The translations under genes were made by a program, and so were the position numbers. Of a stretch of DNA of 51,442 bases, positions 909 to 46,168 are shown piece by piece; positions within the stretch are counted from its first letter, which is position 1, and every line of letters begins with the position of its first letter. The notes beneath the pieces were generated by a model. That model saw only the letters and a list, made by a program, of their open reading frames with translations. It made no database searches and was not told the origin of the DNA. The stretch is from NCBI GenBank assembly GCA_001938485.1, contig MQRK01243178.1, forward strand, positions 1 through 51,442, read 5' to 3'. This DNA comes from Girardia tigrina (lineage: Eukaryota).

Positions 909-1419
909 GGGAAATAGGGTATTTACATTGCAATTCTGTGTACATTCTGGCAGTTAAGCAGAATAAAGATTGACGTCCAATGTTATATTATTTAGAACCA
1001 GCTTGTAATAAAATTACACTCTTATATTTCAACTAAATACACATTACATTCTCAAAGAGCCTGTCTTTTTCAGTAACTGATTTCAGCAGGTGTTCTGGAT
1101 CCAAACACTGAATTTCTTTTTCAGGGTTGCTGAAATAAGTCCACTTTACGGTGCAAGAATCATTCATCAGGAGGATTTAGAAGCAGTTGCCGACATGTTA
1201 CCTCTAAATTTTCAGTTTTGGCTTATGTCAAATAGTGTAGAGCTTGACGATATCGTTTGTCAAGCTTACCAAGAATATGAAGGTATTTCAGTACTGAGAT
1301 CTGTGAAGTGGCAATTTCACTGAATAATAATCATGTCTTAGTGAATTGATTTACTTTACCACTTTTATGCATGGCTATGATATTTATCGTTATCTGACAC
1401 CTTGGCCGAGGAAGATAGA

Positions 1420-2480
1420 TACCATGGCAACATTGCAAAAAGTGCTCATCGATCTCTGCACAGTATACAAATGTGCTAATCGATACGGCACATGTGCTTA
1501 TAGATAGAGCACAGTGTGCTTCACATGTCAAATGTGCAAACACTGTGCGACACATGTACAAGTGTGCAAAAATCGATAAATTCAAAATTTCCCAATTTTT
1601 TAAAGTGCTAGTTATTTTGATTGGTACATTGTGCTATGTGTATATTTTGATTCTCTATTCAACTGCGCAATTAGAATTTTGTATATTGATTTATTTTTCC
1701 TATAATAAATTTTAATACTCATAGGATGTAGAGGCCGATGTAAGCATTTCTGCATTTCAACGGGTACCCCATTACTTCAAATTCTACCCAGGCTCCTTGA
1801 GATACTACTGCTTGGCCGGGCGCTGTCTGCGGTTTTTCGAGTACCTGCTGCACTTGTTCCGACTGCACGGTCGCTACTCCATCATTGTTACGGAGCATCC
1901 AGTGTCGACGGGTGTTCTTACTAGAAACCCATAGGTCAATAGTCGGAATATGATTTTAGATTTTCGAAAAAATGCACAGAAATCGATTATTGAGATGCTG
2001 TTTTTTATAGTGCAAAGTGTTCTCAAACGCCCATATAGTGTACAGGTCCAAGGAAGCATAATATCGAAATTCTACTGATGCACTTACATAGAAATTCATA
2101 TATCAATAGTCCAAATCTGTGTTAACATTTTCGAAATAAATTTCAAAAGTTCATTTTTCGTTCACGGTACACAGTGACAGTGAACGTGCAGAGGGTGTAA
2201 TTAGAACTAAGCAAAATATTAAAATATTGCTAATGCACTTAGATAGAAACCCATAGGTCAATAGTCAAATTCCATTTTCACATTTTCGAAAAAGTCAGCC
2301 GAAATTAATTTTTCGAATATGTGTGCACTAGGCTGCAATATTAATCCAATATATGAATTAGAAAATCTACCAAAATCAATAAATTCATTAGTAAAAAATA
2401 AATAAAAGCATTAAAATCGCATAATCGACCTTCAGAATTACCTTATTAACCATCAAAATTACATTATCAACTATCAAAAA
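1420..2480 (+). repeat. Diverged partial copy of the Polinton-like terminal/subterminal repeat
   Basis: Collinear with 13200-13650 (e.g. ttttgattctctat, gcaattagaa, atattgatt..tttttcctataat) and with the reverse of 27300-28700. Confidence 0.7.
1730..1915 (-). pseudogene. Gypsy-type aspartic protease fragment inserted in the repeat
   Basis: GC-richer island. Minus strand gives VDTGCSVTMM (D-T-G active site). Confidence 0.45.
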
Positions 2481-9864: not shown

Positions 9865-10102
9865 TATTTGTGTTTTTTAAATCATTTTTTTAATTAAAAC
9901 TTTGTTGGTAAAGTAGACTTCTGAATGCATAAAGAATGGATATAAAAATTTTATTTTTTTGATTTACTAGTTTAACAAAAAATATATTTTCAGTATTTAG
10001 TAAATCAAAAAAATAAAATTTTTATATCCATTCTTTATGCATTCAGAAGTCTACTTTACCAACAAAGTTTTAATTAAAAAAATGATTTAAAAAACACAAA
10101 TA
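9865..10102. repeat. Near-perfect inverted repeat, ~105-bp arms, 28-bp spacer
   Basis: 9865-9969 is the reverse complement of 9998-10102. Confidence 0.92.
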
Positions 10103-12330: not shown

Positions 12331-12849
12331 ATTTACCTCGTTCAAAGTCTCGAGGCATTTTGAACGTTTTGTTCCCATTTCCGACTTTCATTTCATTAGG
12401 TTGAACCATTTGCAGAACAACGAATTTCGATGTCACCCGTCTAGCAATCAATTTCAATTCTCGTAAATACGCAATCGACTTTGGTTTCAGTCATTATTCT
12501 ATTATATTTTCTGATGCACCATTGAACGCAGTATTAATCTTCCGTCCTTAAATTTTTTTCTGATTCCAACGCTTCCTCCTTCAGTGGATTACGTGTCGTC
12601 AACCGGTTGATCGGTGGTACAAACGGTCTCTCGACATTCACTGTCGTTTGGTTCTCACTGCCAGTATAATAAAATCGCCTTCGATGATCTCCTTTGCTTT
12701 TACTCCTTTATAACGACACAAAAAAGACAATCGTTTTTGATTTCTTAAATTCGATTCAGAGATCGCTAGAATGCGATAAGGATTACTCAAACTCCTAAGA
12801 GTCCAGAAATTCACATTCGAACCTCCGGTTGACTATGGCATGCCCGTCT

Positions 12850-13686
12850 AGTAGGGGGAAAATGCGGGTTCTCCCCCAACCCCTGGGGGTAGCCCGTTAC
12901 AATGGCAGCGGTCGCCGCTACCATGGCAACGGTCACGGTTACCATAGCAACGGTTGCGGTTACCATAACAACGGTTCCGAACACCCTACCAACGGTTACG
13001 AACACCCTAGCAACGGTCCTCATCACCTTAGCAACGGTTCCGGTTCACTTGGTAACGGTAACCAAGGTCTTAGTTACCATAGCAATGGTAACAAAGGGAC
13101 GTTTTTCAATAGCAACGGATACAGTGATTCAAGGCGGTTGTAACCATGCTAACGTTTACCGCATCCATAGTAACCGTGACCCTTAGCAACCACAGATCAA
13201 AAATGTGTGGCACAATGTGCAATATCGATTATCACATCGGGGCACAATGCAGTGATCAATTAGCATTTTTTTGTGTTAGCATAGGGCTTTTCAAGCTGCA
13301 CATGTGCAAAAGTGCAAATACATAATTTTTTTTAAAAGTACTAGTGTCAAAAATCGATATCATGTGTTTGATATACATTTTGATTCTCTATCTGAATGTG
13401 CAATTAGAACTTACATATATTGATTACTTTTTCCTATAATTAGCATAATGTGCAAATTTACACAAAATGCACATCGATTTTAGAGATAGAAGAAAGCAGA
13501 ATATCAAAAAAGTGCTGATGCACTTGAATAATAACCCATATACGCATATTCAGATTCCATATCAACATTTTTGAAAAAGCGCTGATAAATTGATTTTTTC
13601 GAATATTTCTGAATAATTCGAATAATTCTTTAAAAAGTGCACAAAAATCGATTTTTTCATATATATTTGAAACCCCTATGATATAT
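12850..13686 (+). repeat. Left terminal inverted repeat
   Basis: Reverse complement of 20663-21367; the right copy has fewer 21-bp units. Confidence 0.92.
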
Positions 13687-13965
13687 AGGAAACATTTCAG
13701 GTTCAAAATTATTCAGAGTAGTCTTTTTCAAAGCATTGATATTAATTGGCTCACCATAATCACACGTCACTGTAATAGATTGTATGGTGATATTGAATGG
13801 TGGATCAATTGGTTGTTTACAGTCAATTATTCGACATTTTCCATTGCGGAAGAATATGATGGTGTACTCCGAAAAGTGTAAAATACATTGACACGGTTTA
13901 GTACCAAAATGGAGGTCATTCAGGCATTCTTCAGTAAATCCTTTGTAATTGATATTACGCAGCAT
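13687..13965 (-). pseudogene. Compact TBP-like (TATA-binding protein fold) gene, 3' truncated at the TIR
   Basis: TIIFFRNGKCRII resembles TBP TALIFSSGKMVCT. IQSITVTCDYGEPININAL...FEPEMFP resembles TBP IQNMVGSCDVKFPIRLEGL...YEPELFP. Confidence 0.7.
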
Positions 13966-15364
13966 TTTGTGAAAAATGTACGTCAGTATTCATTTCAATT
14001 CAAAGTCCTTGCCTTGTGTCTAAAATGAAGTGGAAGTTTAAAACCTTTAATGAACTTAACCAGGTAACTGAAGAAAAGAAGATTGATGATAAGACAATTA
14101 ATGGACCTAACCAATTAACTGAAGAGATAAATACTGATCAACCTAATCTAGTTGAACAAGTCAGACCAGTAGGGCAGTCTAGACTAGTCAGTCTTCCTAG
14201 GCTAGTTGGATAACCAATAGTAGCCAAGGCTAGCCGGGCTAGCCTAGGCACTCAGACAACCAAGGATATCCAGGCACCAATTGCTGAAGCTTTGGTTAGT
14301 CAGGTTAACCAAGCTAGTTATTTTCAACCAAAACAAAGATGCTCCACAAAAATCTTCCTCATCATGGGTTTCTACATCAACAACATATAGAGGATATCAG
14401 ATTAACCTTTTGAAATATCTGAAATCAATTAAATTGAGAGATCCGGTATATGTTAGAAAGAGCAAATCTTTTGAATATTGCCCTACAAGAAGTTGGAAAA
14501 AGACCAGATGGGAATGTGAGTGAACATAGAGAACAATATTTTTGATCAGATGATGGATTAAAATTCAGAGATTTTATGGGTCATGAAAAACCAACAATGG
14601 ACTTGTCTANNNNNNNNNNNNNNNNNNNNNNNNNNNNNNNNNNNNNNNNNNNNNNNNNNNNNNNNNNNNNNNNNNNNNNNNNNNNNNNNNNNNNNNNNNN
14701 NNNNNNNNNNNNNNNNNNNNNNNNNNNNNNNNNNNNNNNNNNNNNNNNNNNNNNNNNNNNNNNNNNNNNNNNNNNNNNNNNNNNNNNNNNNNNNNNNNNN
14801 NNNNNNNNNNNNNNNNNNNNNNNNNNNNNNNNNNNNNNNNNNNNNNNNNNNNNNNNNNNNNNNNNNNNNNNNNNNNNNNNNNNNNNNNNNNNNNNNNNNN
14901 NNNNNNNNNNNNNNNNNNNNNNNNNNNNNNNNNNNNNNNNNNNNNNNNNNNNNNNNNNNNNNNNNNNNNNNNNNNNNNNNNNNNNNNNNNNNNNNNNNNN
15001 NNNNNNNNNNNNNNNNNNNNNNNNNNNNNNNNNTATGGAAACTGTCAGAAATTCGTTGTATTTAATTGTTGATACCAGTTGTATTGTTGTGTTAATAAAT
15101 CTTGTAATAATTTAGTCTTGATTTTATATAAAATAGCTTAAAACACTTGTTAAAATGGATTTAGAAACACAAATGAAATATGTATTAGAGACACTGAAGC
15201 TGAATTTTAAAATGAATGGAGAAATGTACTTGTACGTTAATAAATGTTTCCCATGTTACTTTCTGAAATGATTATTTGATGAACCTTTAATTGAATTAAA
15301 ACGTAACAAGATTATAAAGAACATTTATTTATTTACATATGTACAATATATACAAGTGCATCAT

Positions 15365-18300
15365 TCACAAGAAATAATGTCCGTGAAGTAATGTACTTAT
15401 TCATTCTGTCAAAATATGTCGTTTATCGTCAAACCAGTCTAGGTTTTTCTTCCGCATCATTACTGTGGAGACTTGAGTTCTCTTGATAAGATCCTTCGCA
15501 TTTCAGAAATTATATTGATTTGTTTCCGCAGCACTCTCATATAATCATGGAATCCGATTTGGTTTGCTAACGTTGCCCGTTGAACTCCCTTTGCCCTCTT
15601 TTTGATCTTATCATTCACATCAATGGCATTGATTGTTAGACCGTAGTGCCACGAATCTAGAGATGATTTAACCATTGACTTCATCCTTAAACTTGCCAAG
15701 GACCTTTTTATTTGATGTTGAATAATTTGGATGGTCCTTTTGATAGTCTGAGGTTGACCCATTTGAAAAAACTCCTCAAACAGATCTTCTGCATTAATCT
15801 GATAGCTATCAGTGTCCATATACATTAGCTCTAAATCCAAGAATTTAGGGACCATGATGTCATAGTGGATGTCGTCCATCAATGTCTTGGATAGATACAG
15901 GATTGACATCCCCACAAATACCGGCTTATTAAACTCCAGGGATGTCTTCAGCATATGTATACTCACAAGGTTTTCAGTATATATAATACTATTGTGGAAG
16001 TTTGATTTAGCAATTTAGCTTCTTTACTCGCTTCCAATCACATACCAGTTCGATGTTGATTCTGTTGCGGATATTCTCCATCGTTTTGCCAAAAACGTTG
16101 TTCTTGTACAGTTTGAACTGAACCTTTTCAAAGTCGCTTTTGGTATTTGTCCTCAGATTGGTGTTAAAGTCAATGGCTTAAGCCATTTTGACTGACTAAA
16201 CTGAAGAGCCCGATGGATCTTTGTGACTATGAGACCATTCCTTATAGCTTGTTGGAGATTGATGTAATGGGCTACATATCTTCTTATGTTTTCCATTAGG
16301 AGGACATTTACTCTCAGGCAGAAAAGGCAGCTGCTCATGTCTTGTATGTATGGATTTGGGATATTCAACATTGACTTCCAATATGTAGCCCACATCTCCA
16401 TTAGGGTTCAAATTTTCTATTGTGATGTCTTCAGGTTGATCCACCTATTTGAAATTGTCAAAAGGCAATGGAGCACTCATTGCCCATCCATATAAATTAT
16501 TAGCATCCAAGTATGTTATGTATGAGGATGCCTTGGATGGATCATAATTTTTCATGTATTTATTGTTTGCATCACCATAACGATGACTAGACTGACAGAT
16601 TCCACCTCGAATATCTTTTTCCAGCATGAGGATCATGTAATAATCTTTCAGGATTTGAAGCCTTATACCTGTATATTTCAACATTGCTGCCCAACTCATA
16701 CCTGGTGATGTAAAGAAATGAGCTGGATCCAACTTGTGGCTCTTAAGTGTCACATCCCGAAAGCTCTCAAAGACATCTGTAAGAAGCAGCACATCTGTTT
16801 GGAGGTATACATCACTATATTCCCCAAGTATTTGGCATTTGAAGGCTTGCCATACATTTTGTGCATGTTGATAATCAGCATCACTAATGTCGGTGTCATT
16901 AAGCTTGTTGTAAAATACCTCTTTTGCTGGCAATGTTGTTTCATCCAGCGATCTCCATGATGTTATGTAGTCATAGGTGAATTCTCCTTTCCTTTTGACC
17001 AAGTCAAATTTATTTGGGAAGAACTTTTTAGTTTCCTTCAGTTCATCTACAGGAAGATACTTGACAAGGCTGTCCAGTGATGATTACATTAATCGGAAAC
17101 TATCAATGAATCGTAGCTTAATTCTACCCACATGCTTGGTAAATGTGATGTATTTTTCCTCACTATTTGGAATAACATATATATTCCCTTTGATTTTTCC
17201 CAGTTCTCTTACTATGAAATGGGAGTCCTATCCACTAAGATTGTGGAATACAACAGGAATATTTGTAGATGTTTTACATCGCAAATTGCAGTTATTACAT
17301 GCTGCTCCTCGATATTTTCCAGTAAAATGACAATGGTCTTTGACTTTGTGATAGTCATTTGTGAATGATTTTTCACATATGTAACATTGTGTTGCCTTGC
17401 TCCATTCACATTTTTCTTGACATGTCATCACCATATCTAGCTTGTGTTGTGGCAACATGTCTTCAATTGTGTTGGCATAAGTCTCCATACGTTTCATAAA
17501 ATGTTCCGCTGCATCCGGACCTCTGTATATGAATAGCTCCTTGTCAATACCCAATGCATACATACAGTATGATGAGAGCTCATGATACTGGTATGCTGTC
17601 GTACTGCTAAGTTGTGGATCCGGATTGCATGTTTGAACTGGGCTTAGAATGGCTTCAAAGTCACAATATATAATAATGGGAACTTTCTGCATCTTTTCAT
17701 ATTCTTTGAATTCAATATAATCTTCCTTTGGAAATTCCGCTCTGATGCAATGATTGTTATTGCAATAAGCCTTGTGCTCCTCCAACTCGATTATAGCTTC
17801 ATCGCCATTGAAATGTGTAAAGCATCTTTTACAAATCTCAACCCTTCCTTTATGTTTTGATATTTGGGACCCTAATAGGCGCTCAAAGTCCTTGATCCAG
17901 ATAAAGTGCCTCTCTTCTCCATCATCAAGCAGCAGCAAATCCCTATGTCCTTCCAATTCTTCCTTACATGCAAGTAATGGATAAAACTTTTACCACGTTT
18001 TTCTTAGCTTGGTTTCTTGTCTGTCTGTCTGTTTGTCTGTCTGGAACAAATCTTGCGATTGATTTTTAGACCACTTTCAGTCATCCAATTGAGCTGAATT
18101 TTTTATACAGGCTTGCTTTCGATCCAAATATGTTGATTGAGACATTGTTGATGCTTCCAAATTTAGCGACTTCTTCAAAGCTCGGTGGGAATGATATGCA
18201 GTTGAAGTCATATGTGTGCTGCAGATTGTTGTATTTCGATACTCGTGATGCATGTTTCGATCCTCAAAAAATTTTGACAGCATTGCATACTTGAAGCACA

Positions 18301-19118
18301 TGTTGTCATTATTTTGTACATTGATGCATGCCTTTTTCTTCACTATCCATTCAGGAAGCGGTATGTAGGGGCTGCCTCTCATTGGTGAGTATTTATGTAC
18401 ATGAATGACCAATTGGTTAATGGATGCAAGAGTACATCCACTCTTCTTCTCCTTGCTTTCATCGGCTTCCTTTATTATTTTGGTATGCTCTTCACTGAGC
18501 CATTCCAAAATATCATCGGATTCTAACATTGGTCTATTTTTGGTCTTGAAGGCTCTATGTGATAATTCATCATCGACATTGGTGAATGTCGCTTCTAATT
18601 TAAGGTTGACTTTGATAGCCTTGAAATCAACCATATTGTCTTGTAGAATCTCCATGGTTTCCTTCTTGGAATATTCCAGAAAGTCATGGAGACTTGTAAC
18701 ATTGCTATCTAGGCTGCCTAGGTTAGCCTGGGGAGCCTTGATAATATATTGACGTACCTTCTTATTCAATGAAGCTTTATGAATTGGTCTCTGTCTTGAG
18801 CTTTTTGATGGAAAATTTATGATATTTGTATCATTTGCACGTTTTGATGGAATATTTGCAGCCTTGGCAGCATTTGAAACAGGTATCTCCATTGGAACAT
18901 CTGTAGTATTTACATGTCTTAAGGGAACTTTTATCGTATTTGAAAGATTCTTCTCAATTGGGACATTTAACACATTCTTCTCAATTGGAACATTCGAAAC
19001 ATTTAGTGGTGCGAGAACTGGATACGTTGATGATTGGAAGATAATCTTCTTGGACTTTATTGAAAAGTCACACAAATAGTCCTTGTGACTATCATAAAAT
19101 TGATGATTGTGAGTATTG

Positions 19119-19132
<14 letters not shown>
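15365..19132 (-). pseudogene. Protein-primed family B DNA polymerase (Polinton type), fragmented
   Basis: Exo I YCDFEA, FHNLSG*DSHF, FIDSFR, RKGEFTYDY, YLQTDVLLL, RGG, motif A YLDANNLYGWAMS, motif B K...NNVFGKTMEN, motif C YMDTDS, KKRAKGV, C-terminal DDKR...HGHY. Many frameshifts and stops; true start uncertain. Confidence 0.93.
17991..18121. mobile_element. Short insertion with (CTGT)n in the polymerase
   Basis: Absent from the second polymerase copy at ~38540-38560. The CTGT microsatellite resembles those in DINE-1/HINE-type elements. Confidence 0.55.
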
Positions 19133-19486
<354 letters not shown>

Positions 19487-20049
19487 TCATTACAAATTTG
19501 TGGATTATGAACATTTACCTGGCGGCATCTGTATAATGGACATTTTTGAATTTTCGTAGGAATTTTCTCTTGAATCATCTTCGACATATTTTCTTTGAAT
19601 ATATTCTTTTTCGATTTGATGAAAGGAACTAGATGTTGTTTATGGTTGTAATCTTCTTCCATTATTTAAATATTGAATAATTTAAATAAATAAAAGACAA
19701 GATCAGTTATTTGAAAAGTTTATTAATAACTAAATCTATCGATTTAAACAATCGATAAAAAAATCATTATTTTTTATTTAACAAAAATTAAATTAAAAAT
19801 CATTATTTTTAATTCAACAAATTGAATTAAAATAATTTATTGATTAAGTAAAGTTGTCACAATGGTCATTGTAAAATTCTTCAAAACTAGTTCTGTACAC
19901 TGCCTCACATGTTGGACATATAAAATATTCTTGTGAAGAGAAATTGTATTTGTAGTATTGGGATAAATTTGAATTCTAAAAAGATATTTTTTACGGAGCT
20001 GAAAAAAAAACTCACCATTTTCTTAACAAAATTTTGAAATAATGATAGA

Positions 20050-21367
20050 TGTCTGATTAGAAATTAATTTGATTAAAATTCAAATTTTGTTAACATAATG
20101 AATGCAATTCGTTGACATGATGAGTGCATAACAAATTGCATGATGAATGCAATATGTTGACATGAAGGATGCATGACATATCACCTTGGATGCGGTCATG
20201 TTTTGTATGGTTGAAATGCTAATTATATATTATAATATTTTACATAATAGTTTGTTTTAATGTATCACTTTTCATAAATATATAAAAAAATGGAATAGAA
20301 TGAACTCTGACAAGGTAAGTAGATGTCGAACCCTCCCCCGGGGGGTCTCCTGATTTAGAAAGCCTATGCATGTTTTAGGTATTCCATAGGATTTTATATA
20401 TAAAATTAAGGTTATATTAAATGGTTACGGTAACCAAGGTACTATGATAGTTTATGTCTAGGTTTATCTACTTTACCAGATCATGTACATGTTAGGTATA
20501 ATGTCTATGCACGTTTTAAGTACTATAGGAGTTTTGTACATGTAGATTTCACATGTAAAATAAAAGGTTATGTATCTTGGTTGTGGTAACCATGGTGCTT
20601 GTGATTATTAAGGAAGTATATTAGGCAATTTATGAGGTATTGTTTGATGGTAAACAACATACATATATCATAGGGGTTTCAAATATATATAAAAAAATTG
20701 ATTTTTGAGCACTTTTTAAAGAATTTCAGAAATATTCGAAAAAATCAATTTATCAGCGCTTTTTCAAAAATGTTGATATTGAATCTGAATATGCGTATAT
20801 GGTTTACTATTCAAGTGCATCAGCACGTTTTTGATATTCTGCTTTCTTCTATCTCTAAAATCGATGTGCATTTTGCGTAAATTTGTACATTATGCTAATT
20901 ATAGGAAAAAGTAATCAATATATGTAAGTTCTAATTGCACATTCAGATAGAGAATCAAAATGTATATCAAACACATGATATCGATTTTTGACACTAGTAC
21001 TTTTAAAAAAAAATTATGTATTTGCACTTTTGCACATGTGCAGCTTGAAAAGCCCTATGCTAACACAAAAAAGTGCTAATTGATCATTGCACTGTGCCCC
21101 GATGTGATAATCGATATTGCACATTGTGCCACACATTTTTGATCTGTGGTTGCTAAGGGTCACGGTTACTATGGATACGGTAAACGTTAGCATGGTTACA
21201 ACCGCCTTGAATCACTGTATCCGTTGCTATTGAAAAACGTCCCTTGGTTACCATTGCTATGGTAACTAAGACCTTGGTTACCGTTACCAAGTGAACCGGA
21301 GCCGTTGCCATGGTAAGGGGCTAACCCCCGAAGGAGGATGGGGGAGAACCAGCATTTTCCCCCTACT
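20050..21367 (-). repeat. Right terminal inverted repeat and subterminal region
   Basis: Ends in CTACT. Collinear, with deletions, with 27120-28876 and 40140-42302. Confidence 0.88.
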
Positions 21368-21907
21368 CCGTCGCACCATTCCTGCATGCAATTCTCGGCC
21401 GAATCGCAATCACTCACACAAATACTCTCCAGATTCAAGAACGGACACCCGAGACAAGCTCTGAAATTGCTGTCAATTCGAACACTCGGGACGCCACATA
21501 CAGTAAATTGATTCACAAGACTTAAATACGAATTCATTATCCGGTTCGACTGTCAAAACGAGCTTATTATTCAAATCCATAATCATTGTAATGGTGGATT
21601 TAATCCACGCAATCAAATAATAAAATTCGCGCCAAAAAATTATTTTGATCCGATTAAACAAAAAAACATAATTAATATTCGATCGATTTCTACTCAAATT
21701 CGATTAAAAAATACACACATGCGCATATTTACCGAATGAAAACAAGCAAGCAACACAACAACTGCAGTCAGAAATAAAACACGTGAGAAAGAATGACACG
21801 CATCCTCTCGAAATCGATAATGTATGACACCACTTCATGACTTGTTGCGTCGTTCACAAATCATATAAAACTGAAAAAAAATTGATCACCCTCAAGAAAG
21901 TACACGC

Positions 21908-26099: not shown

Positions 26100-27919
26100 C
26101 TGGCTAGCCTAGGTTAGTCCTGGCTATCTTAGGATAGGTTATACCATATCACCAATATTAGTATACAATCTATTGAAGTAATAAATGATTAGGGTCAACA
26201 TATTAATACTATGGATATATATGAATATGAGCGATATGTAGTCTGTTACGTAATAAAAAGATGTACAATTGTGCAATTATTCAACCTTGTCGTTGACTGT
26301 GATGATTTATGTTATGTATATCAATATATCACTAGAGGTAATTATACTACAAGACATGTATTACATATCTTCATCATTGAAAAAATGCATATATTACATT
26401 ATTTTACATGAAAATCATGTATTTGTCTATCTTTTTCAGTAATTTATGTAAATTTTTAAAATTCATTCTTACAAAACCTATAAATAGTTTACACACTACA
26501 TTTAGATTATAGCCTGCCTAGGTCTGGTGCATGCATATAACACATAGATTGCATTTACTTCGATGATTCAAGTTTCAGTGTGCTATATAACCATGATATG
26601 TTACAAATAGATAATAATATAATATATAACATGTAAAACATCATGGAAACATTTGAACTGTGTTGTGAATCATATAAGTTGTGATCACAAGTTGTAACAA
26701 TATAATATATATGAAACATATGTATATTAAAATGTTCTCTTTTTGAAAGGTTCATAAGGTTAATGGTTGATACAATTAGGGTCACTTTTTATTGCTGTTA
26801 AGGTAGATTTGAAGGTTTTTATATTCAAATGGCTGTTCATTAGGTGATTTTGATGGTTGATGATATGGTTGTTAAGGTATATTTGATAGCTGATATTGTA
26901 CTTTTAACGGTTGATAAAGTATGGTTGATGATATATCTGATAAGATATATGGTAATTTTGATGGTTGATGATATGGCTGGTAAGGTATTTTTGGTGTTTC
27001 ATATGTTAAATTTGAAGGTTGATAGCATGATGGTAATGTTTGATAATATAGTTCTTTTAGTACTTTATATATTATTCAGCATTTTCTGTATTTTTTACAT
27101 GTTCAGCTGTGTATTGATATGATGAATGCAATACGTTGACATAAAGGATGCATGACGATATCACCTTGGATACGGTCATGTTTTGAATGGTTGATACGAT
27201 ATTGGTTGATAACATAGTATAATATCATAATATAATACATATCTATAATTTCATATTTGCACACATAATGTGCATATATTCGAAAAAGCACTACGTATCG
27301 ATTTTTTCAAAAATGTTGATATGGAATCTGACTACTCATATATGAGTTACTATCCATGTGTTCAAACATATTTTTCATATTTTGCTTGCTTCGTCTTATA
27401 TACCCTATGAGAGTTCTCCCTCCCTTTACACTATAAAACACAGCATCTCAATAAAGCACTATGTATTGATGTTTTCGAGAATCTAAGATCATATTCCGTC
27501 TATTTACCTATGGGTTTCTCCCTAGGGTTACATGTGTTCAGAGAGATTTTTGATATTTTGCTTCCTTGAACCTGTATACCCTATGAGAGTTCGACCCCAC
27601 TTTACACTATATTATATTAAAACATATAGTGCACTTTGTACAATTGTGAATTTATTGATTTTGTACACTTGTACTAAGCTTAATTGTACTTTAATTAAGC
27701 TTAAGCTTAATGTGCAGCCTTCCTAGGCTTAGTGCAGTATTGATTAGCACATGTGCAGTATTGATTAACACATGTGCAGCCTAAGCAGCACATGTGTAGT
27801 ATTGATTTTTGCACTTTTTGTGTAATTTGGACAGTTTTTAAATGTTTTCCATGATTTTTAAGGTGTTTTTCATGGTTTTTAAGATAACAGTGATGGTTTC
27901 TAAGGTGTTTTCGACTGTT

Positions 27920-27952
<33 letters not shown>

Positions 27953-28876
27953 AATGTTATGTAACATGGTTACGGTAACCATGATACTTTGATAGGTGAT
28001 GCATTAGATGATTATGCAGATGTTATGTATTATATTGATGCATGTTTGAAGTACAACAGGAGTTTTTACAAGTCGTTTTAACATGTAAAATAAAAAGTTA
28101 TGTATCTTGGTTACGGTAACCATGGTACTTGTGATTATACTTGTGTACATTAGGAGATTCATGAGGTATTGTTTGATGGTAAATAACATACATATATCAT
28201 AGGGGTTTCATATATATACGAAAAAATAGATTTTTGAGCACTTTTTTGAGAATTTCAGAAATGTTCGAAAAATTCGATTTATCAGCACTTTTTCGTAAAT
28301 GTTGATGTGGAATCTGAATGTGTGCGTATATGGGTTACTATTCAAGTGCATCAGCACATTTTGGATATTCTGCTTCCTTCTGACTCTAAAATCGGTGTGT
28401 ATTTTGTGTAAATTTACACATTATGTTAATTATAGGAAAAAGTAATCAATATATGAAATTTATAATTGCACATTAAGATAGAGAATCAAAATGTACATCA
28501 AACACAAGATATCGATTTGTGACATTAGTACCTTTAAAAAAATTTATGTATTGATTTTTGCACTTTTGCACATGTGCAGCGTAAAAAGCACTGTGCTACC
28601 ACATTAGAAATGTGCTGCAAAATGTGCCCTATCGATTAGCACTTTAAAAATATCTATTAACACATCTGGGCACTGTGCAGCGATCAATTAGCACTTTTCT
28701 TCGGTTGCTATGGATACGGTAACCATTACCATGGTTACAACTACCTTGAATCACTGTATCCGTTGCTAATGAAAAACGTCCCTTGGTTACAGTTGCTATG
28801 GTAACCGTGACCGTCGCCATGGTAATGGGCTACCCTCCCCCGGGGGTTGGTGGAGAACATACATTTTCCCCCTACT
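26100..28876 (-). mobile_element. Orphan terminal/subterminal arm of the Polinton-like family
   Basis: Ends cattttccccctact at 28876. Collinear with 38950-42302 and 20100-21367; non-coding. Confidence 0.85.
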
Positions 28877-34505: not shown

Positions 34506-36060
34506 CACGGTGACGCAAAATAAACTCCAAGGTACTTTTCTATTGGATCTTTTTATCCACCTACTTTTTTATAGGTAAAGTATACATTTTTAGAATCCTG
34601 AGCGTCGCCAAATTCTGATGGTNNNNNNNNNNNNNNNNNNNNNNNNNNNNNNNNNNNNNNNNNNNNNNNNNNNNNNNNNNNNNNNNNNNNNNNNNTTTTT
34701 ATTCCATAAAAGCATAACAACAATTAATTATCGAATTTCAACTTGTCCTCCATCTCTAAGAAAACATTCATGCAAACGTCGTCTGTAGTCGGCCACAACA
34801 CGTTCACGAAGTGCTCGATCTCCACGGATTTCATTGGCAACTCCTTCAATCGCTGCTCTCAACTCTTCGAGTGTGCTTGGACGTTGTTCGCGATGATAAA
34901 TTCGACCTTTCATGTAGCCCCACAACCAATAGTCACATGCTGTAAGATCTGGCGAGCGAGGTGGCCATGTAACTGGAGCAGGATGCGCCCGTGTTCTGCA
35001 ACCTATCCATCGATTTGGAAACTGTTGACTCAACAATTCAAGAAAATCTCCAAGAATGTGTGGCGGAGCACCGTCATGCTGCTCAATGAGAGAATTGAAA
35101 TTCGGCCAAGTTTGAAGCTCTGGAATAACGTGCTCTTGATAGTCATCCAACGACCATTGATTCCGCGCTCATTTCCTTGTCGCTCCCAAAAATATGGGCC
35201 AACAACACCTTCGACACCAATTCCCATCCAAACTGTCAATTTTTGAGGATGAAGTCGACGAACATCAAACCAATGAGGATTATCATCGGCCCTCATGATC
35301 CAGTCTTGACGATTGACGCATCCGTCCAAATGAAAGTGGGCTTCATCCGTAAAAAGAAGATTGTTGAGTCTGTTTGCATCTTCATCCAATCGATCCAATT
35401 CGGTTCGAGCAAACTCAATTCGAGCGGCATAGTCGGTCTCCTCCAAGGCATGTGCCATTTGAAAATGATAGGGACGCATCTGTAAGTCTTCTTTCAAAAT
35501 TCGCTGCAAGCTTCATTGTGACATACGAACTGTTCCGTGATCGTCTTCTTCGCTGTCAGTGTCGTCAGTTGAAGCAAATGGATTGCGTGGAGTTGATAGA
35601 TGAGGATTTGCAGTAAAGGCTTCACGGACATCTTCAATGGCTTCTTTGATGCGAACACGTTTTGGCTTGTTCTTTCCGCGCTTTCCATGGACACTTCCAG
35701 TCGCTCGAAAATCGTCAATCCATTTTACAATGATTCTTTTTTCCGGAATCTTTGCTCGACCATTTCTTGTTTCACTTCGGAATCGAGTTTTGAGCTGCGC
35801 ATAATCATAGGCTTCCTCAANAAGCATCAAAACGAGATGAGCTTTTTGCTGATCCGTATACGTCATTTGAATCAAATTTTAGGGTAAAACTTTCTAAGTT
35901 CATTTAATAAAACGCTTGTTAAATTTTTCGTTTCAAAATTTTTTTTTAATTTTTGATGTTTTTTTTATTTTTTTATTTTTTTATATACCATCAGAATTCG
36001 GCGACGCTCAGGATTCTAAAAATGTATACTTTACCTATAAAAAAGTAGGTGGATAAAAAG
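34506..36060 (-). mobile_element. rosa-like Tc1/mariner element with long TIRs and frameshifted transposase
   Basis: TA|CACGGTG end; TIR homology 34547-34622 vs 35987-36060. Motifs DDFRATGSV, FTDEAHFHLDG, QHDGAPPH, WPPRSPDLTACDYWLWG. Confidence 0.9.
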
Positions 36061-37799: not shown

Positions 37800-40727
37800 A
37801 TATAGATACACATACGATTGGAGTAACCTATATATGAATAGTCAGAATATGATCTTAGATTTTTGAAAAAATCAATACGTAGTGCTATTTCGAACATATA
37901 TACATTATGTGTGTATATATTATATATTATGATATTATACTATGTTATCAACCAATATTGTATCAACCATTGAAAATGTAACCATATCCAAGGTGATATC
38001 ATCGTACATCCTTCAAGTCAACGATTTGCACTCATCATGTCAACTAATTGCACTCATCGTGTCAACGTACTGCATAGTTAACATTTTATACTATATATCA
38101 ATATTATATATATCAAAAGTTGTTTTTTATAAGTTTATGAATAAAGACAGGTATAAGACGAGTATTTTCAACAAACATTTATTTACATATGTACAATATG
38201 TACAATTTACATATGTACAAGTAGATCATTCACAAACGCTAACGTTGCCCCTTGAACTCCCTTTGCTCTCTTTTTGATCTTAACATCCACATCGATGGCG
38301 TACATCTTAGATCGTTGCAATAGGCCTTCTGCTCCTCCAATTTGATTATAGCTTCAACACCATTAAAATGTATAAAATATCTTTTACAAATCTTGATCCT
38401 TTCTGTATGTTTTGTTATTTGAGATCGGATAAGGCACTCAAAGTTCTTGATCCAGATGAAGTGCCTCTTTTCTCCATCATCTAACAGGAGCAAATCTCTA
38501 TGATCTTCTAATTTTTCTTTACATACAAGTAATGGATAAAATTTTTCATTGTCCAATCCAAAGATATTGATTGAAACATTGTTGTGGCTTCCAAATTTAT
38601 TGACTTTTTCCAGACTTGGCGGGAATCTAATACAACTGAAGTCATATGTGTACTGTAGATCGTTGTATTTAGACACTCGTGATGCATTATGTTGATTATC
38701 AACGAATTTCGATAGTATTGCATACATGAAACACATGTTGTCTTCATTGTGAACATTGATTCATGCTCCTTTTTTTAACTATCCATTCAGGAAGCGGAAT
38801 GTATGAACTGTCTCTCATTGGTGATGTATATATGTTCGAAAAAGCACTACGTATTGATTTTTTCAAAAATCTAAGATCATATTCTGACTATTCATATATA
38901 GGTTACTCCCTAGAGCTCCATGTCTTTAGACAGACTTTTGATATTTTGCTATTGAAAGAATGCACATATTACATGATTTTACATGAAAATCATGTATTTT
39001 TCTATGTTTTTCAGTAATTTATGTAAATTTTTATATATACATTCTGACAAAACTTATAAATAGTTTGCACACTACATATAGATTATAGCCTACCTAAGCT
39101 TAGTACAGCCTGTATAGGCGTAGTGCTGCCTGTCTAGGCTTAGGGCATACATATAACATATAGATTGCATTTACTTTGATGATTCAAGTTTCACAATGCT
39201 ATATAACCATAATATATTACAAATAGATAATAATATAATATATAACATGTAAAACACCATAGAAACATTTAAACAAGTTGTGATCATATAACATGTAACA
39301 ATAATATATATGTATATAATGTACTATATGTATATAACAATAATATAATACATATGTTACGTATGTATATTAAAATGTTCACTTTTTGAAAGGTTGATAA
39401 GGTAATGATGCAATTAAGGTATTGATGCAATTAGTGCCACTTTTTATTGATGTTAAGGTAGATTTGAAGGTTTTTATATACAAATAGTTGTTCATGAGGT
39501 GATTTTGATGGCTGATGATATGGTTGGTAAGTCATATTTGATAGCTGATATTGTACTTTTAATGGTTGATGATATGTCTGATAAGGTATATTGGATAGTT
39601 GGATATGGTGATTTTGATGGTTTTTGCCTGACTAGGCCTAGGCTGAAGTAAATTTGACAGTTGATAGGTAAATTTTATGGTTGATATATGGCTGATAAGG
39701 TATATTGAATAGATGATATGTCAATTTTGATGATTGTTGCCTGGCTAGGCCTAGGCTGAGGTAAATTTGATGGTTAATGGTATGTTTGATGATCTATATT
39801 TGATGGATGATGTATAAAGTATATATCTGATAAAGTATATGGTAATTTTCATGGTTGATAGTATGGTTTTTAAGGTATTTTGATAGTTGATATGTTAATT
39901 TTCATGGTTTTTGCCTGGCTAGGCCTAGGCTGAAGTAAATTTGACAGTTGATAGATATATTTGAAGGTTGATATATGGCTGATAAGGTATATTGGATAGT
40001 TGATAGGTATATTTGAAGGCTGATATGATGATTTTGAAGGTTGATAGCATGATGGTAATGTTTGAAAAGGTAGTTCTTTTAGTACTTTATATATTATTCA
40101 ACATTTTCTGTATTTTATACATGTTCAGCTGTGTATTAATATTATGAATGCAATACGTTGACATGATGGATGCATGACGATATCTCCTTGGATACGGCCA
40201 TGTTTTGAATAGTTGATACAATATTGGTTGATAACATAGTATAATACATATCTATTATATAATATTTGAACACATAATATGCATATGTTCGAAAAAGCAC
40301 TACGTATTGATTTTTCTAAAAATCTAAGATGATATTCTGACTATTCATATATGATTTACTATACATGTGTTCAAACAGATTTTCGATATTTTGCTTGCTT
40401 CGCCCTTTGCCTAGGCTATACCATATGTATGTTCTGCCTCACTATATTATATTAAAACATGAATACATTGCACCTTATACAATTGTGAACTTATTGATTT
40501 CACACACTTGCACATGTATAGTATTGATAACCACATATGTATCCTAGACAGCCTGCCTAGGCTTAGTGCAGTATTGATTAGCACATGTGCAGCCTAGGCA
40601 GAATTGATTTTTGGGCGCTTTTTTGTAATTTTGATAGTTTTTGCATGTTTTCCATGATTTCTAAGGTATTTTTCATGGTTTTGGAGATAGCAGTGATGGT
40701 TTCTAAGGTGTTTTCGACTATATATCC

Positions 40728-40781
<54 letters not shown>

Positions 40782-42302
40782 NNNNNNNNNNNNNNNNNNN
40801 NNNNNNNNNNNNNNNNNNNNNNNNNNNNNNNTATATATATATATATATATATAATATTAAAATGTTATGTATCATGGTTACGGTAACCATGATACTTTGA
40901 TAAGTTATGGTTAGGCTGAGGTACACTAGATTATACAGATGTTATATATTATATTGATGCATGCTTGAAGTACAATAGGAGTTTTTACATGTAAAATAAA
41001 ATGTTATGTATCTTGGTTACGGTAACCATGGTACATGTGCTTGATGATTGGGTACATTGGGCAATTCATGAAGTATTGTATGACGGTAAACAACATACAT
41101 ATATCATAGAGGTTTCAGATATATACGAAAAAATAGATTTTTAAACACTTTTGAGAATTTTAAAAATGTTCGAAAATATCGATTTATCGGCACTTTTATG
41201 AAAATGTTGATGTGGAATCTGAATGTACGTATGTGGTTTCCTATTCAAATAGAGAATTAAAATGTGCATCAAGCATACGATATCGATTTATGACACTGGT
41301 ACTTTTAAAAAATTTTTATTTATTGATTTTTACAATTTTACACATATGCAACTTAAAAAGCACTGTGCTAGCACATTAGAAATGTGTGGCAAAATGTGCA
41401 CTATCGATTAGCACTTTCAAAATATTCCTTAGCACCTCTNNNNNNNNNNNNNNNNNNNNNNNNNNNNNNNNNNNNNNNNNNNNNNNNNNCATGTGCTTGA
41501 TGATTGGGTACATTGGGCAATTCATGAAGTATTGTATGACGGTAAACAACATACATATATCATAGAGGTTTCAGATATATACGAAAAAATAGATTTTTAA
41601 ACACTTTTTTGAGAATTTTAAAAATGTTCGAAAATATCGATTTATCGGCACTTTTATGAAAATGTTGATGTGGAATCTAAATGTACGTATGTGGTTTCCT
41701 ATTCAAATAGAGAATTAAAATGTGCATCAAGCATACGATATCGATTTATGACACTGGTACTTTTAAAAAATCTTTATTTATTGATTTTTACAATTTTACA
41801 CATATGCAACTTAAAAAGCACTGTGCTAGAACATTAGAAATGTGTGGCAAAATGTGCACTATCGATTAGCACTTTCAAAATATTCCTTAGCACCTCTGAG
41901 AACTGTGCAGTGATCGATTAGCACTTTTTTCTACGGTCCTTAGTTACGGGGTCACGGTTGCTGCCTAGGCTATGGTACGGGAAACGTTATCATGGTTACA
42001 GCCGCCTTGGATCATAGTACCCGTTGCTAATGTAAAACGTCCCTTGGTTAGCGTTACTATGGTAACCATGACCTTGGTTACCGTCACCAAGTGAACCGGA
42101 ACGGTTGCTGCCTAGGCTAAGGTGATCTTAACCGTTGCTAAGGTGATCGTGACCTTTGCTAGGGAACCGTCCACCAATCAGAAGCGTTGCTAAGGGGATC
42201 GCGACCGTTGCTATGGTAACCGCAACCGTTGCCATGGTAACCACGGTAACTAGGGACGACCCCCCCGGGGGGCTGAGGGCGAACCCGCATTTTTTCCCTA
42301 CT
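37800..42302 (-). mobile_element. Rearranged Polinton-like derivative
   Basis: Ends tttttccctact at 42302. Long subterminal arm collinear with 26380-28876; contains a polymerase remnant. Confidence 0.85.
38170..38825 (-). pseudogene. Internally deleted second copy of the pPolB gene
   Basis: CFMYAILSKF...SINIFGL...HRDLLLL...RHFIWIK matches 17760-18390. It is then joined to KKRAKGVQRATL (15570-15625) and to the 3' flank (15320-15370). Confidence 0.88.
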
Positions 42303-43644: not shown

Positions 43645-44764
43645 TTAATGGCATAAACCACTTCCATTACAGTTATAACGTTCTGGGCATTGAGAACATG
43701 GTATTCCGACTTTATATGGTTTTCGATAACCAATATTTCCACTGAAATATATATTAATAAAAATTTACTTAAAAAAACTTACCCTGGTGCGTAATTGCAT
43801 ACAAGATACATATTTCCCAATTGAAACTGTCGACAGTCCGCTAACCCACATCCAACCATATCTGTATCAGCCCATACTAACTATAAATGATTAATTTTAA
43901 AATATTGAATTTATAAACTTACAGCAGTGTAATGTAAACAAGTAAATTTATTACAATTGCCAGTAAAGAAATTAAATCCTTCAACTTCATTAAACCATAT
44001 TTGAATACCTCTAAAAATATTTTAATTCAAATTTTCTGTATTTTTTAACGAAAGATAATTTTTTATCGAAAGATAATCAATATCATTCAAATATCTTAAT
44101 TTATTTTAGTATTTATGATTTTTTTATTAAGTCATAGTAAATTAGAAATGTATCAGTACGTGAGGCTTTAAATAATTCTTTTATATTGAGTGAAAGTTGT
44201 ATTTATATACAGTGAAATGTTTCAGTATACTAATACTAACATTTTCTGTTAAGGTTATAATCATAATATTATAATTTATACTTTAATTAATAAGATTTTT
44301 CATTTTTGATCATTTTTGATTTTGTATGTTAATTTAAAATCGAGACAAATTGTATCACGAAATAATTGTCAGATTTTCAACTAACTCAGTAATATTTGTA
44401 CTGTACCAATAAGCAATATTTTGTCCAACCCAATGATAATTATCAAATTTTCTATTTTTAGCTGGATCGTGGTCAAACTGACATTTATTTGCCCAATGCT
44501 GAGCCCTCCGAGCAGCGTCATTATTCCATTGCTAGGACATGAAAAATATACATGTGTTAATATATTATTAATAATTTGTACCATTTGTTTCATATTAGAT
44601 GCAGGTGGTTGGTTTTTCACAGCTCCCATAGCTACTCGAAGCCGTAGATCGTTGTGTGCTTTCAGTAGTTGATTTTTTTGTTTTGTAGTCAAACCACCGA
44701 GAAGTGAATTAATTAAAATATTTATAATAAATATTTTTTTAATAATATTCAAAAACATCAACAT
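43645..44764 (-). CDS. CAP/SCP/TAPS (venom allergen-like) secreted protein, 5 exons, 203 aa
   Basis: Exons 44764-44582, 44531-44386, 44010-43923, 43880-43783, 43741-43645, all GT-AG, total 612 nt. Hydrophobic N-terminus, HNDLR, QPPASNM, W, GQNIA, WFNE, HYTALVWA, VGCG, LVCNYAPGGN, PY..G.PCSQCP. Confidence 0.92.
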
Positions 44765-46019: not shown

Positions 46020-46168
46020 GGTCGTTTCTCCTCTGACGTTTCTCCTCCGGTCGTTTCTCCTCCGACTATTTCTCTTCTAGTCGTTTCTCCTCCGACGTTT
46101 CTCCTCTGACGTTTCTCCTCCTACGTTTCTCCTCCGATCGTTTCTCCGTCGACGTTTCTCCTCCGAAA
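46020..46168. repeat. Tandem ~14-bp repeat (cgtttctcctccga), about 10 copies
   Basis: Directly visible; probably the subterminal array of a DNA transposon. Confidence 0.85.

What the first reader, a model, noticed from the sequence alone, without database searches (positions are those of the whole stretch)
12896..13086. 21-bp-phased array of RFX X-box-like palindromes in the terminal repeats
Seen: 14-mers start at 12896, 12917, 12938, 12959, 12980, 13001, 13022, 13043 (exact 21-bp period, two helical turns), e.g. gctaccatggcaac and gttaccatagcaac. The same phase recurs in other copies (28792/28813; 42207/42228 gttgctatggtaac, gttgccatggtaac) with variable unit number. Established: the RFX X-box consensus is GTNRCC(N0-3)RGYAAC; RFX factors drive ciliary and sperm genes and bind some viral enhancers. 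Inference: a host-factor-loaded origin or enhancer, analogous to NFI/Oct-1 sites in adenovirus ITRs.
Basis: partly seen in the sequence, partly recalled or inferred. Interest (0 to 1): 0.7.

Follow-up and report, generated by a model that had tools for sequence, protein, structure and literature searches.

The report
RFX-site array in Polinton ends
The ends of a very abundant virus-like jumping element (a Polinton/Maverick) in an animal genome carry a row of sites that match the binding site of the host's cilia and sperm regulator RFX, which probably lets the host factor switch the element on, although binding has not been tested.

Summary
The array is real: eight 14-mers at exact 21-bp steps (12896-13043). 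The window holds 11 X-box matches against 0.08 expected, all in copies of one element end. That end belongs to a decayed Polinton/Maverick at 12850-21367, with AGTAG ends, a 5-of-6 target duplication, protein-primed polB pieces and a broken TBP-like gene.

The units fit the RFX code, and variation in the RGYAAC half falls mainly on its degenerate positions. The 21-bp period is not special to the X-boxes. It is also the top or second lag in non-X-box parts of the end, and tandem X-boxes in 60 other repeat families have periods of 15-44. None of 19 related Polinton contigs shows such an array, though most lack their ends.

Best reading: a lineage-specific host-RFX docking cluster acting as an enhancer (about 0.5). 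Origin helper, element-encoded binder and neutral minisatellite are the rivals. RFX at a viral terminal repeat is known from AAV; I found no report for Polintons.

The parts
12844..12849 (+). Left target-site duplication (6 bp)
   Evidence: 5 of 6 bases match the flank at 21368-21373, against 1 of 6 for the flanks of the other two ends; chance of 5 or more of 6 is 0.008
12850..12895 (+). Terminal 46-bp core, starting AGTAG, with G/C runs and a predicted hairpin; putative origin and integration end
   Evidence: All four ends start with the same AGTAGGG; 82-88% alike between ends; hairpin predicted
12896..13063 (+). Eight 21-bp units, each an X-box-like 14-mer plus a 7-bp spacer; units 1-4 near-full palindromes, units 5-8 mainly the RGYAAC half
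13064..13190 (+). Shared core with further X-box-like and half sites at 13073, 13103, 13140, 13161 and 13176, out of the 21-bp phase
   Evidence: present in whole or part in all four ends
13191..13686 (+). Inner AT-rich part of the terminal repeat; the match to the right end stops at 13686
   Evidence: 95% identity to 21148-20663; contigs of runs X4 and X19 begin at 13687 (table 8), which suggests a deletion junction in this copy
13657..13989 (-). Broken TBP-like gene of the element, cut off where the left terminal repeat begins
   Evidence: Pfam TBP E=2.9e-5; E=1.3e-23 to a profile of 34 short TBP-like proteins, profile positions 2-104 of 155; a family member folds like TBP
15460..19141 (-). 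Broken protein-primed DNA polymerase B gene with an endonuclease VII/HNH-like insert, in several open frames
   Evidence: 5683 homologs of one frame, several with PF03175 and PF02945, best 49-62% identity; PF02945 in the 17231-17989 frame
20663..21367 (-). Right terminal repeat of the same element, with 2 in-phase units; lies upstream of polB
   Evidence: 95.6% inverted match to 13025-13686; units
21368..21373 (+). Right target-site duplication
26376..28876 (-). Second right-type end with a long, gene-poor inner region; 2 in-phase units
   Evidence: lag 21 is the top lag in its inner part
38951..42302 (-). Third right-type end, with an interrupted array; a polB piece lies inward at 38238-38835
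42174..42181 (+). CCAAT-box-like word (NF-Y type, motif recalled) between X-box units of the third end
   Evidence: found in 1 of 4 ends here; the same word is in a loose end seen in 133 records of run X1 (table 7)
1418..1709 (+). Isolated piece of the inner terminal repeat with one X-box at its edge

Best explanation
The array is a cluster of docking sites for the host's RFX transcription factor, built into the terminal inverted repeat of one Polinton/Maverick lineage. Shown: it sits just inside a Polinton-type end, its units fit the RFX code, and the unit number changes between copies. Inferred: (1) host RFX binds the full palindromes as dimers and the half-sites more weakly; (2) the cluster opens chromatin and acts as an enhancer for the element's genes, the nearest being polB about 2 kb inward of the right end, in RFX-rich cells such as sperm-forming or ciliated cells; (3) the units multiply and shrink by slippage, and the 21-bp period reflects this end's general 21-bp repeat structure more than a required helical phase. 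This copy is decayed, so the sites are inherited from active relatives. I put RFX binding at about 0.7 and the enhancer role overall at about 0.5.
For: 11 X-box matches vs 0.08 expected, all in copies of this end. Half-sites at 27 per kb in the ends vs 1.1 per kb elsewhere. In 17 pooled units the R and Y positions of RGYAAC vary only among allowed letters (8 G/9 A; 14 C/3 T); 11 of 16 right-half variants fit the code. Of 4 listed differences in 12896-13190, 3 move towards the X-box pattern in 90% or more of the depth laid in run X1, and 1 moves away (table 3; only the 40 best-supported of 257 differences were shown). No RFX, D5-type winged-helix or helicase family that could supply an element-encoded binder among 125 of 213 ORFs of related Polinton contigs. 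Tandem perfect X-boxes: at least 116 metagenome stretches in 60 families, against 9 in 596 Gb of prokaryote genomes. A CCAAT-like word sits inside one array. Precedent: RFX1/3 bind the AAV terminal repeat and raise transgene expression (PMC5760533, passages). In Schmidtea, Polintons are desilenced during neuronal and epidermal differentiation (PMC8532177) and an Rfx orthologue links to cilia modules (PMC12660999); these bear on the case only if the host is a planarian, which is not shown.
Against: Motif columns are not more conserved than spacer columns (0.79 vs 0.77), and the first three spacer bases are the best kept (1.00 in 8 units, 0.94 in 17). Half-sites are barely better kept between copies than the rest (0.84 vs 0.81; 0.88 vs 0.86). 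The allowed variants are transitions, and the units are related by duplication, so they are not independent. All 23 left-half variants break the symmetric pattern. No array in 0 of 19 related Polinton contigs, of which only 2 show terminal repeats. NF-Y and YY1-type words are not enriched near tandem X-boxes in the 60 families. I had no control pattern for the metagenome scan. An X-box alone does not predict RFX regulation (PMC2375033). No expression or binding data; host not identified.
Confidence: 0.5

Rival explanations
1. Auxiliary replication origin: host RFX bound just inside the terminal core helps load the element's polymerase and terminal protein on the DNA end, as NFI and Oct-1 do in adenovirus (recalled). 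It could coexist with the enhancer role.
For: The first unit always lies 47-63 bp from the end, right behind the conserved terminal core, at both ends of the element. Polinton end motifs are thought to serve protein-primed jumping-back replication (PMC8097293, passages).
Against: Unit number ranges from 2 to 8 and the distance from the end varies by several bases, which fits a rigid origin complex poorly. No array seen in 19 related Polinton contigs, most of which lack ends. In AAV the shown effect of RFX is on expression.
Confidence: 0.2
2. Iteron-like sites for a protein of the element itself (an RFX-like winged-helix, integrase or packaging protein). The likeness to the host motif would come from a related fold or from mimicry.
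For: Subterminal arrays with a 21-bp period are typical of iterons and transposase sites (recalled). The best-kept word runs past the X-box into three spacer bases. The autonomous element's gene set is unknown.
Against: No RFX, D5-type or helicase family in 125 ORFs of related Polinton contigs or in the element's frames scanned. The same palindrome is arrayed in 60 repeat families with no similarity to this window and no polB match, which points to a shared host factor.
Confidence: 0.13
3. Neutral subterminal minisatellite: one palindrome that happens to fit RFX was amplified by slippage in a region prone to 21-bp duplications, and does nothing for the element.
For: Lag 21 ranks first or second in 4 of 5 non-X-box stretches of the end (z 3.4-5.7) and in 0 of 3 control regions. 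No excess conservation of motif over spacer. Units drift along the array (10-19 of 21 bases identical). The region folds better than shuffles as single-stranded DNA (z -2.7), which would favour slippage.
Against: Only 0.4% of 14-bp palindromes come within one change per half of the pattern. X-box-like sites also occur outside the tandem phase in all four ends. Variation favours the degenerate positions.
Confidence: 0.12
4. The repeat is not a Polinton end but the 3' end of a non-autonomous Helitron-like element (hairpin, then CTAC, inserted before T) that captured polB and TBP-like pieces.
For: All four ends are followed by or end in T after CTAC and carry a GC-rich hairpin. Three of four ends face the same way, and the ends are laid far deeper than the interior. 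Helitron end rules are recalled.
Against: The two most similar ends (95-97%) face each other around polB with a 5-of-6 flank duplication. A second polB piece lies inward of another end. AGTAG fits published Maverick end motifs at 5 of 6 bases.
Confidence: 0.05

Closest known systems
Polinton/Maverick (adintovirus) terminal inverted repeats (PMC8097293 and bioRxiv 2023.08.22.554363, passages read)
   Same: AG-rich end motif, 6-bp target duplication, repeat length within the 100-1500 bp range, pPolB with an HNH-type insert inside
   Different: The end reads AGTAGG, not (AGT)2. Integrase, ATPase and capsid genes were not found in this decayed copy. The passages read describe only end motifs and lengths, and no paper in my searches links RFX to these repeats.
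[quoted passage not shown]
   Same: A host RFX site inside a viral terminal repeat; shown there by EMSA and knock-down to support expression
   Different: AAV has one imperfect site in a single-stranded-DNA parvovirus. Here there are 2-8 tandem near-consensus sites plus further half-sites in an integrating double-stranded element, and binding is untested.
NFI and Oct-1 sites of the adenovirus terminal repeat (recalled, no call)
   Same: Host-factor sites directly behind a terminal core in a protein-primed linear genome
   Different: Adenovirus has single sites at fixed spacing. Here the sites form a variable tandem array, and no replication role is shown.
Transposon-borne arrays of host transcription-factor sites, such as heat-shock elements in Caenorhabditis Helitrons (recalled); putative sites in the C. 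elegans Polinton repeat at eri-6/7 (bioRxiv 2024.01.15.575659, passages read)
   Same: A mobile element spreads clustered host-factor sites through a genome
   Different: Other factor and other element class. The eri-6/7 passages name no factor and no array.

Membership tests
Polinton/Maverick | Protein-primed DNA polymerase B | tested here: met
   Homologs with PF03175 and PF02945; relatives found with the profile lie beside integrase, A32 ATPase and double-jelly-roll capsid genes. The gene is broken in this copy.
Polinton/Maverick | Long terminal inverted repeats | tested here: met
   13025-13686 vs 21314-20663, 95.6% over 663 columns, and 86% over the terminal 46 bp
Polinton/Maverick | 6-bp target-site duplication | tested here: met
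   5 of 6 bases; P=0.008 for one pair; other flanks 1 of 6
Polinton/Maverick | End motif (AGT)2 or (AG)3 | tested here: inconclusive
   All four ends read AGTAGG, 5 of 6 to (AGT)2 (motif)
Polinton/Maverick | Integrase, packaging ATPase, protease and capsid genes | tested here: inconclusive
   Not found in the five frames of 12850-21367 scanned; a 424-base assembly gap lies at 14610-15033; no intact family member was available
RFX X-box | Match to RTNRCC N1-3 RGYAAC | tested here: met
   1 of 8 array units exact and 7 of 8 within 2 mismatches; 8 exact sites in the window, all in the ends (consensus)
RFX X-box | Conservation of the motif above its flanks | tested here: not met
   0.79 vs 0.77 across 8 units; 0.84 vs 0.81 and 0.88 vs 0.86 between copies; low power, four decaying copies
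RFX X-box | Binding by RFX and RFX-dependent expression | not testable with these tools
   Needs EMSA, ChIP or RNAi
Helically phased (iteron-like) array | Period kept at whole helical turns because the phase matters | tested here: inconclusive
   21 is kept within this family, but it is also a leading lag of non-motif DNA in the end, and other X-box arrays show no peak at 21 (4 of 60 families; 3 of 22 with three or more units)
Helitron 3' end | Hairpin plus CTRR end, insertion between A and T, no target duplication (recalled) | tested here: not met
   Ends read CTAC then T, and one pair has a target duplication and faces inward around polB

The most novel reading that the evidence does not exclude
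A Polinton lineage has wired its ends to the host's cilia and sperm regulator RFX, and pairs this with its own TBP-like gene, to time its activity to germ-line or ciliated cells. Its mass expansion has scattered very many RFX clusters through the host genome, which could act as enhancers or as a sink for RFX. Capture of tandem X-boxes may be a repeated strategy of unrelated animal mobile elements: 60 independent families were seen, the largest with X-boxes in inverted arms.
Probability: 0.3. Interest if true: 0.75.

Novelty: new variant of a known kind. Interest (0 to 1): 0.5.

Why it matters
How Polintons are switched on, and in which cells, is largely unknown, and the passages I read describe their terminal repeats only by length and end motif. 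A named host factor makes the question testable with EMSA, ChIP and RNAi. If the ends are as abundant as four in 51 kb and the laid depth suggest, they would also be a large source of RFX sites in this genome, with possible effects on cilia and sperm gene control. If binding fails, this is an ordinary subterminal minisatellite.

Tried and rejected
No whole genome is held for this window, so copies could not be counted.

Protein-coding heptad repeat: rejected. The 97-codon open frames of the left end shrink to 65 codons or fewer in the other three ends, have no Pfam match, and the ATG at 12835 lies outside the element. Known RNA family: none; 2 matches far below threshold.

Relatives of the end: two perfect X-boxes 21 bp apart gave 0 hits in IMG/VR, and a 25-base core pattern gave 0. 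The variable-spacing pattern gave 1 (L001, between divergent genes of an unrelated virus). None of 117 pattern loci resembles the window by blastn or matches polB. A single polB frame found no viral locus; the profile found 19, none with an array.

TBP-like profile: 1 viral locus, L146, not followed up, and a weak hit next to the 17-bp X-box array of L015 (E=6e-4). The ORF list of L015 shows host-like DNA with a receptor-type gene, so I treat that hit as chance. Co-motifs near tandem X-boxes in 60 families: NF-Y and YY1 not enriched; CRE-like and E-box words 3-5 times denser but in only 5 and 9 families (motifs recalled).

Host identification failed: the CAP-domain exon found one unnamed relative and the Atlas gave only generic CAP clusters. 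Run labels are coded. RNA status of runs X3 and X19 is a guess and they are contigs, so they show no expression.

Literature: 'Polinton' plus 'RFX' gave 1 paper with unrelated mentions; searches listed no paper on RFX arrays in Polinton repeats. The library lacks most subscription papers and Repbase reports, and no supplements were read. Earlier scan notes had nothing on this sequence.

Full report
Observation. All 11 lie in copies or pieces of one repeat. Units 1-4 are near-complete palindromes, and units 5-8 keep mostly the RGYAAC half. Against GTNRCC-NN-RGYAAC the mismatches are 2, 1, 0, 1, 3, 2, 1 and 2. More sites follow out of phase to 13190.

What the repeat is. The array begins 47 bp inside an end that starts AGTAG at 12850. 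Three more ends of the same kind finish at 21367, 28876 and 42302. The ends at 12850 and 21367 face each other and are 95.6% alike over 663 columns. Their flanks agree at 5 of 6 bases (P=0.008), while the other flanks agree at 1 of 6. Between them lie broken frames of a protein-primed polymerase B with an endonuclease VII-type insert. Relatives found with a profile of its homologs sit beside integrase, A32 ATPase and jelly-roll capsid genes. End motif, target duplication and repeat length fit published Mavericks (PMC8097293 and bioRxiv 2023.08.22.554363, passages). So 12850-21367 is a decayed Polinton/Maverick. It also holds a broken TBP-like gene at 13657-13989, which belongs to a family of short proteins that all hit Pfam TBP (34 of 34) and one of which folds like TBP. 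The adintovirus preprint lists a TBP-like gene in a figure legend (bioRxiv 697771, passages). Unchecked notes of this scan report TBP-bearing Polintons in other genomes. polB reads inward from the right end, its first frame starting about 2.2 kb from that end.

Abundance and host. Four ends lie within 30 kb. In run X1 the terminal repeat is laid up to about 30 times deeper than the TBP-like interior and over a thousand times deeper than the flank. The tool warns that this is no copy number, so I take it only as a hint of a very large family. The stretch is also covered in runs labelled as three other organisms. The host is an AT-rich animal with a CAP-domain gene, and I could not name it. A freshwater planarian is my inference from base composition and from the mostly aquatic habitats of metagenome runs that I did not lay, so it is weak. 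Dugesia genomes do show a Maverick expansion (bioRxiv 2025.12.11.693146, passages).

For RFX. The units fit the published consensus RTNRCC N1-3 RGYAAC (PMC2375033, passages). Half-sites are 25 times denser in the ends than elsewhere. In 17 pooled units the two degenerate positions of RGYAAC vary only among the allowed letters, and 11 of 16 right-half variants fit the code. Of the 4 listed differences between this copy and the laid contigs in 12896-13190, 3 go towards the X-box and 1 away (40 of 257 differences shown, and units from other places can pile up here). Only 0.4% of 14-bp palindromes come this close to the pattern. No candidate element-encoded binder was found in 125 of the 213 ORFs of related contigs. 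Pairs of perfect X-boxes occur in at least 116 metagenome stretches, which fall into 60 families unrelated to this window, against 9 stretches in 596 Gb of prokaryote genomes. The largest family (52 loci) has 44-bp units with a YY1-like word (motif recalled), and in L074 these lie in inverted arms. RFX1 and RFX3 bind the AAV terminal repeat and support expression (PMC5760533, passages).

Against, or weakening. Motif and spacer columns are equally kept (0.79 vs 0.77), the first three spacer bases are the best kept, and between diverged copies half-sites are only 2-3 points better kept than the rest. The power is low, with four decaying copies and units related by duplication, and the allowed variants are transitions. 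The 21-bp phase is not tied to the motif. Lag 21 ranks first or second in 4 of 5 non-X-box stretches of the end and in 0 of 3 controls. Only 4 of 60 other families use it, with periods spread from 15 to 44. No array was found in 19 related Polinton contigs, but only 2 of them show terminal repeats and the true termini may be missing. An X-box alone does not predict regulation.

How it most likely works. Shown: position, motif fit and variable unit number (2-8; contigs skipping about four units). Inferred: host RFX docks on the cluster and opens the end, which enhances transcription of the element in RFX-rich cells (0.5). In Schmidtea, Polintons gain active marks when stem cells become neurons or epidermis (PMC8532177, passages), and Rfx is tied to cilia modules (PMC12660999, passages). 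Both would fit if the host is a planarian. A role in sperm-forming cells would give the element access to the germ line; RFX2 as a regulator of spermiogenesis was seen only in a search listing. Rivals are an origin helper of the NFI/Oct-1 type (0.2, recalled analogy), sites for an element-encoded protein (0.13), a neutral minisatellite (0.12) and a Helitron end (0.05).

Novelty. Host-factor sites in viral terminal repeats are a known kind, including RFX in AAV. A tandem RFX array in Polinton ends did not appear in my searches, which miss most subscription papers and Repbase; PMC7498320 (passages) and bioRxiv 2024.01.15.575659 (passages) add only background. I rate it a new variant of a known kind, interest 0.5: a real and testable lead on Polinton regulation, with function unproven and the phasing claim weakened.

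Noticed in passing
window 13657-13989 (-): Broken TBP-like gene inside the Polinton. It belongs to a family of short TBP-like proteins (106 hits, most over the TBP-like part) with a TBP fold.
   Followed up: partly
window 1418-2480, 26376-28690, 38951-41440: The long gene-poor inner end regions hold several unrelated 20-22-bp tandem repeats and a 54-bp repeat; lag 21 stands out throughout. Unexplained.
   Followed up: partly
window 12850-12895 vs 21318-21367: The two ends of the same element differ more in the terminal 46 bp (86%) and in unit number (8 vs 2) than in the inner repeat (95-97%), so the tip is a hot spot of change.
   Followed up: partly
window 37820-38909: A polB piece (38238-38835) is flanked by an 86-bp, 99% inverted repeat made of the element's inner sequence; probably an inversion or fold-back.
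   Followed up: no
window 19119-19456 and 9865-10102: Two near-perfect fold-back elements (arms of 141 and 105 bp), the first just upstream of polB.
   Followed up: no
window 43780-44704 (-): Exons of a host CAP/SCP-domain gene; one unnamed relative at 77% identity.
   Followed up: partly
window 34549-36060: Tc1/mariner-like element with 74-bp inverted ends around broken transposase-like frames (family judged from the translation).
   Followed up: no
window 46020-46166: 14-15-bp tandem array of about 10 copies next to a retroelement fragment.
   Followed up: no
L074 4472-5072 and 51 related loci: An abundant repeat family with 44-bp units of an X-box plus a YY1-like word, placed in inverted arms in L074.
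   Followed up: partly
L001 10001-10057: Two perfect X-boxes 43 bp apart between divergent genes of a 40-kb viral contig.
   Followed up: no
L047 346-568, L091 154-492, L023 410-1459, L015 160-253: Long X-box minisatellites (periods 21, 21, 23 and 31, 17) in unrelated eukaryote-like contigs.
   Followed up: partly
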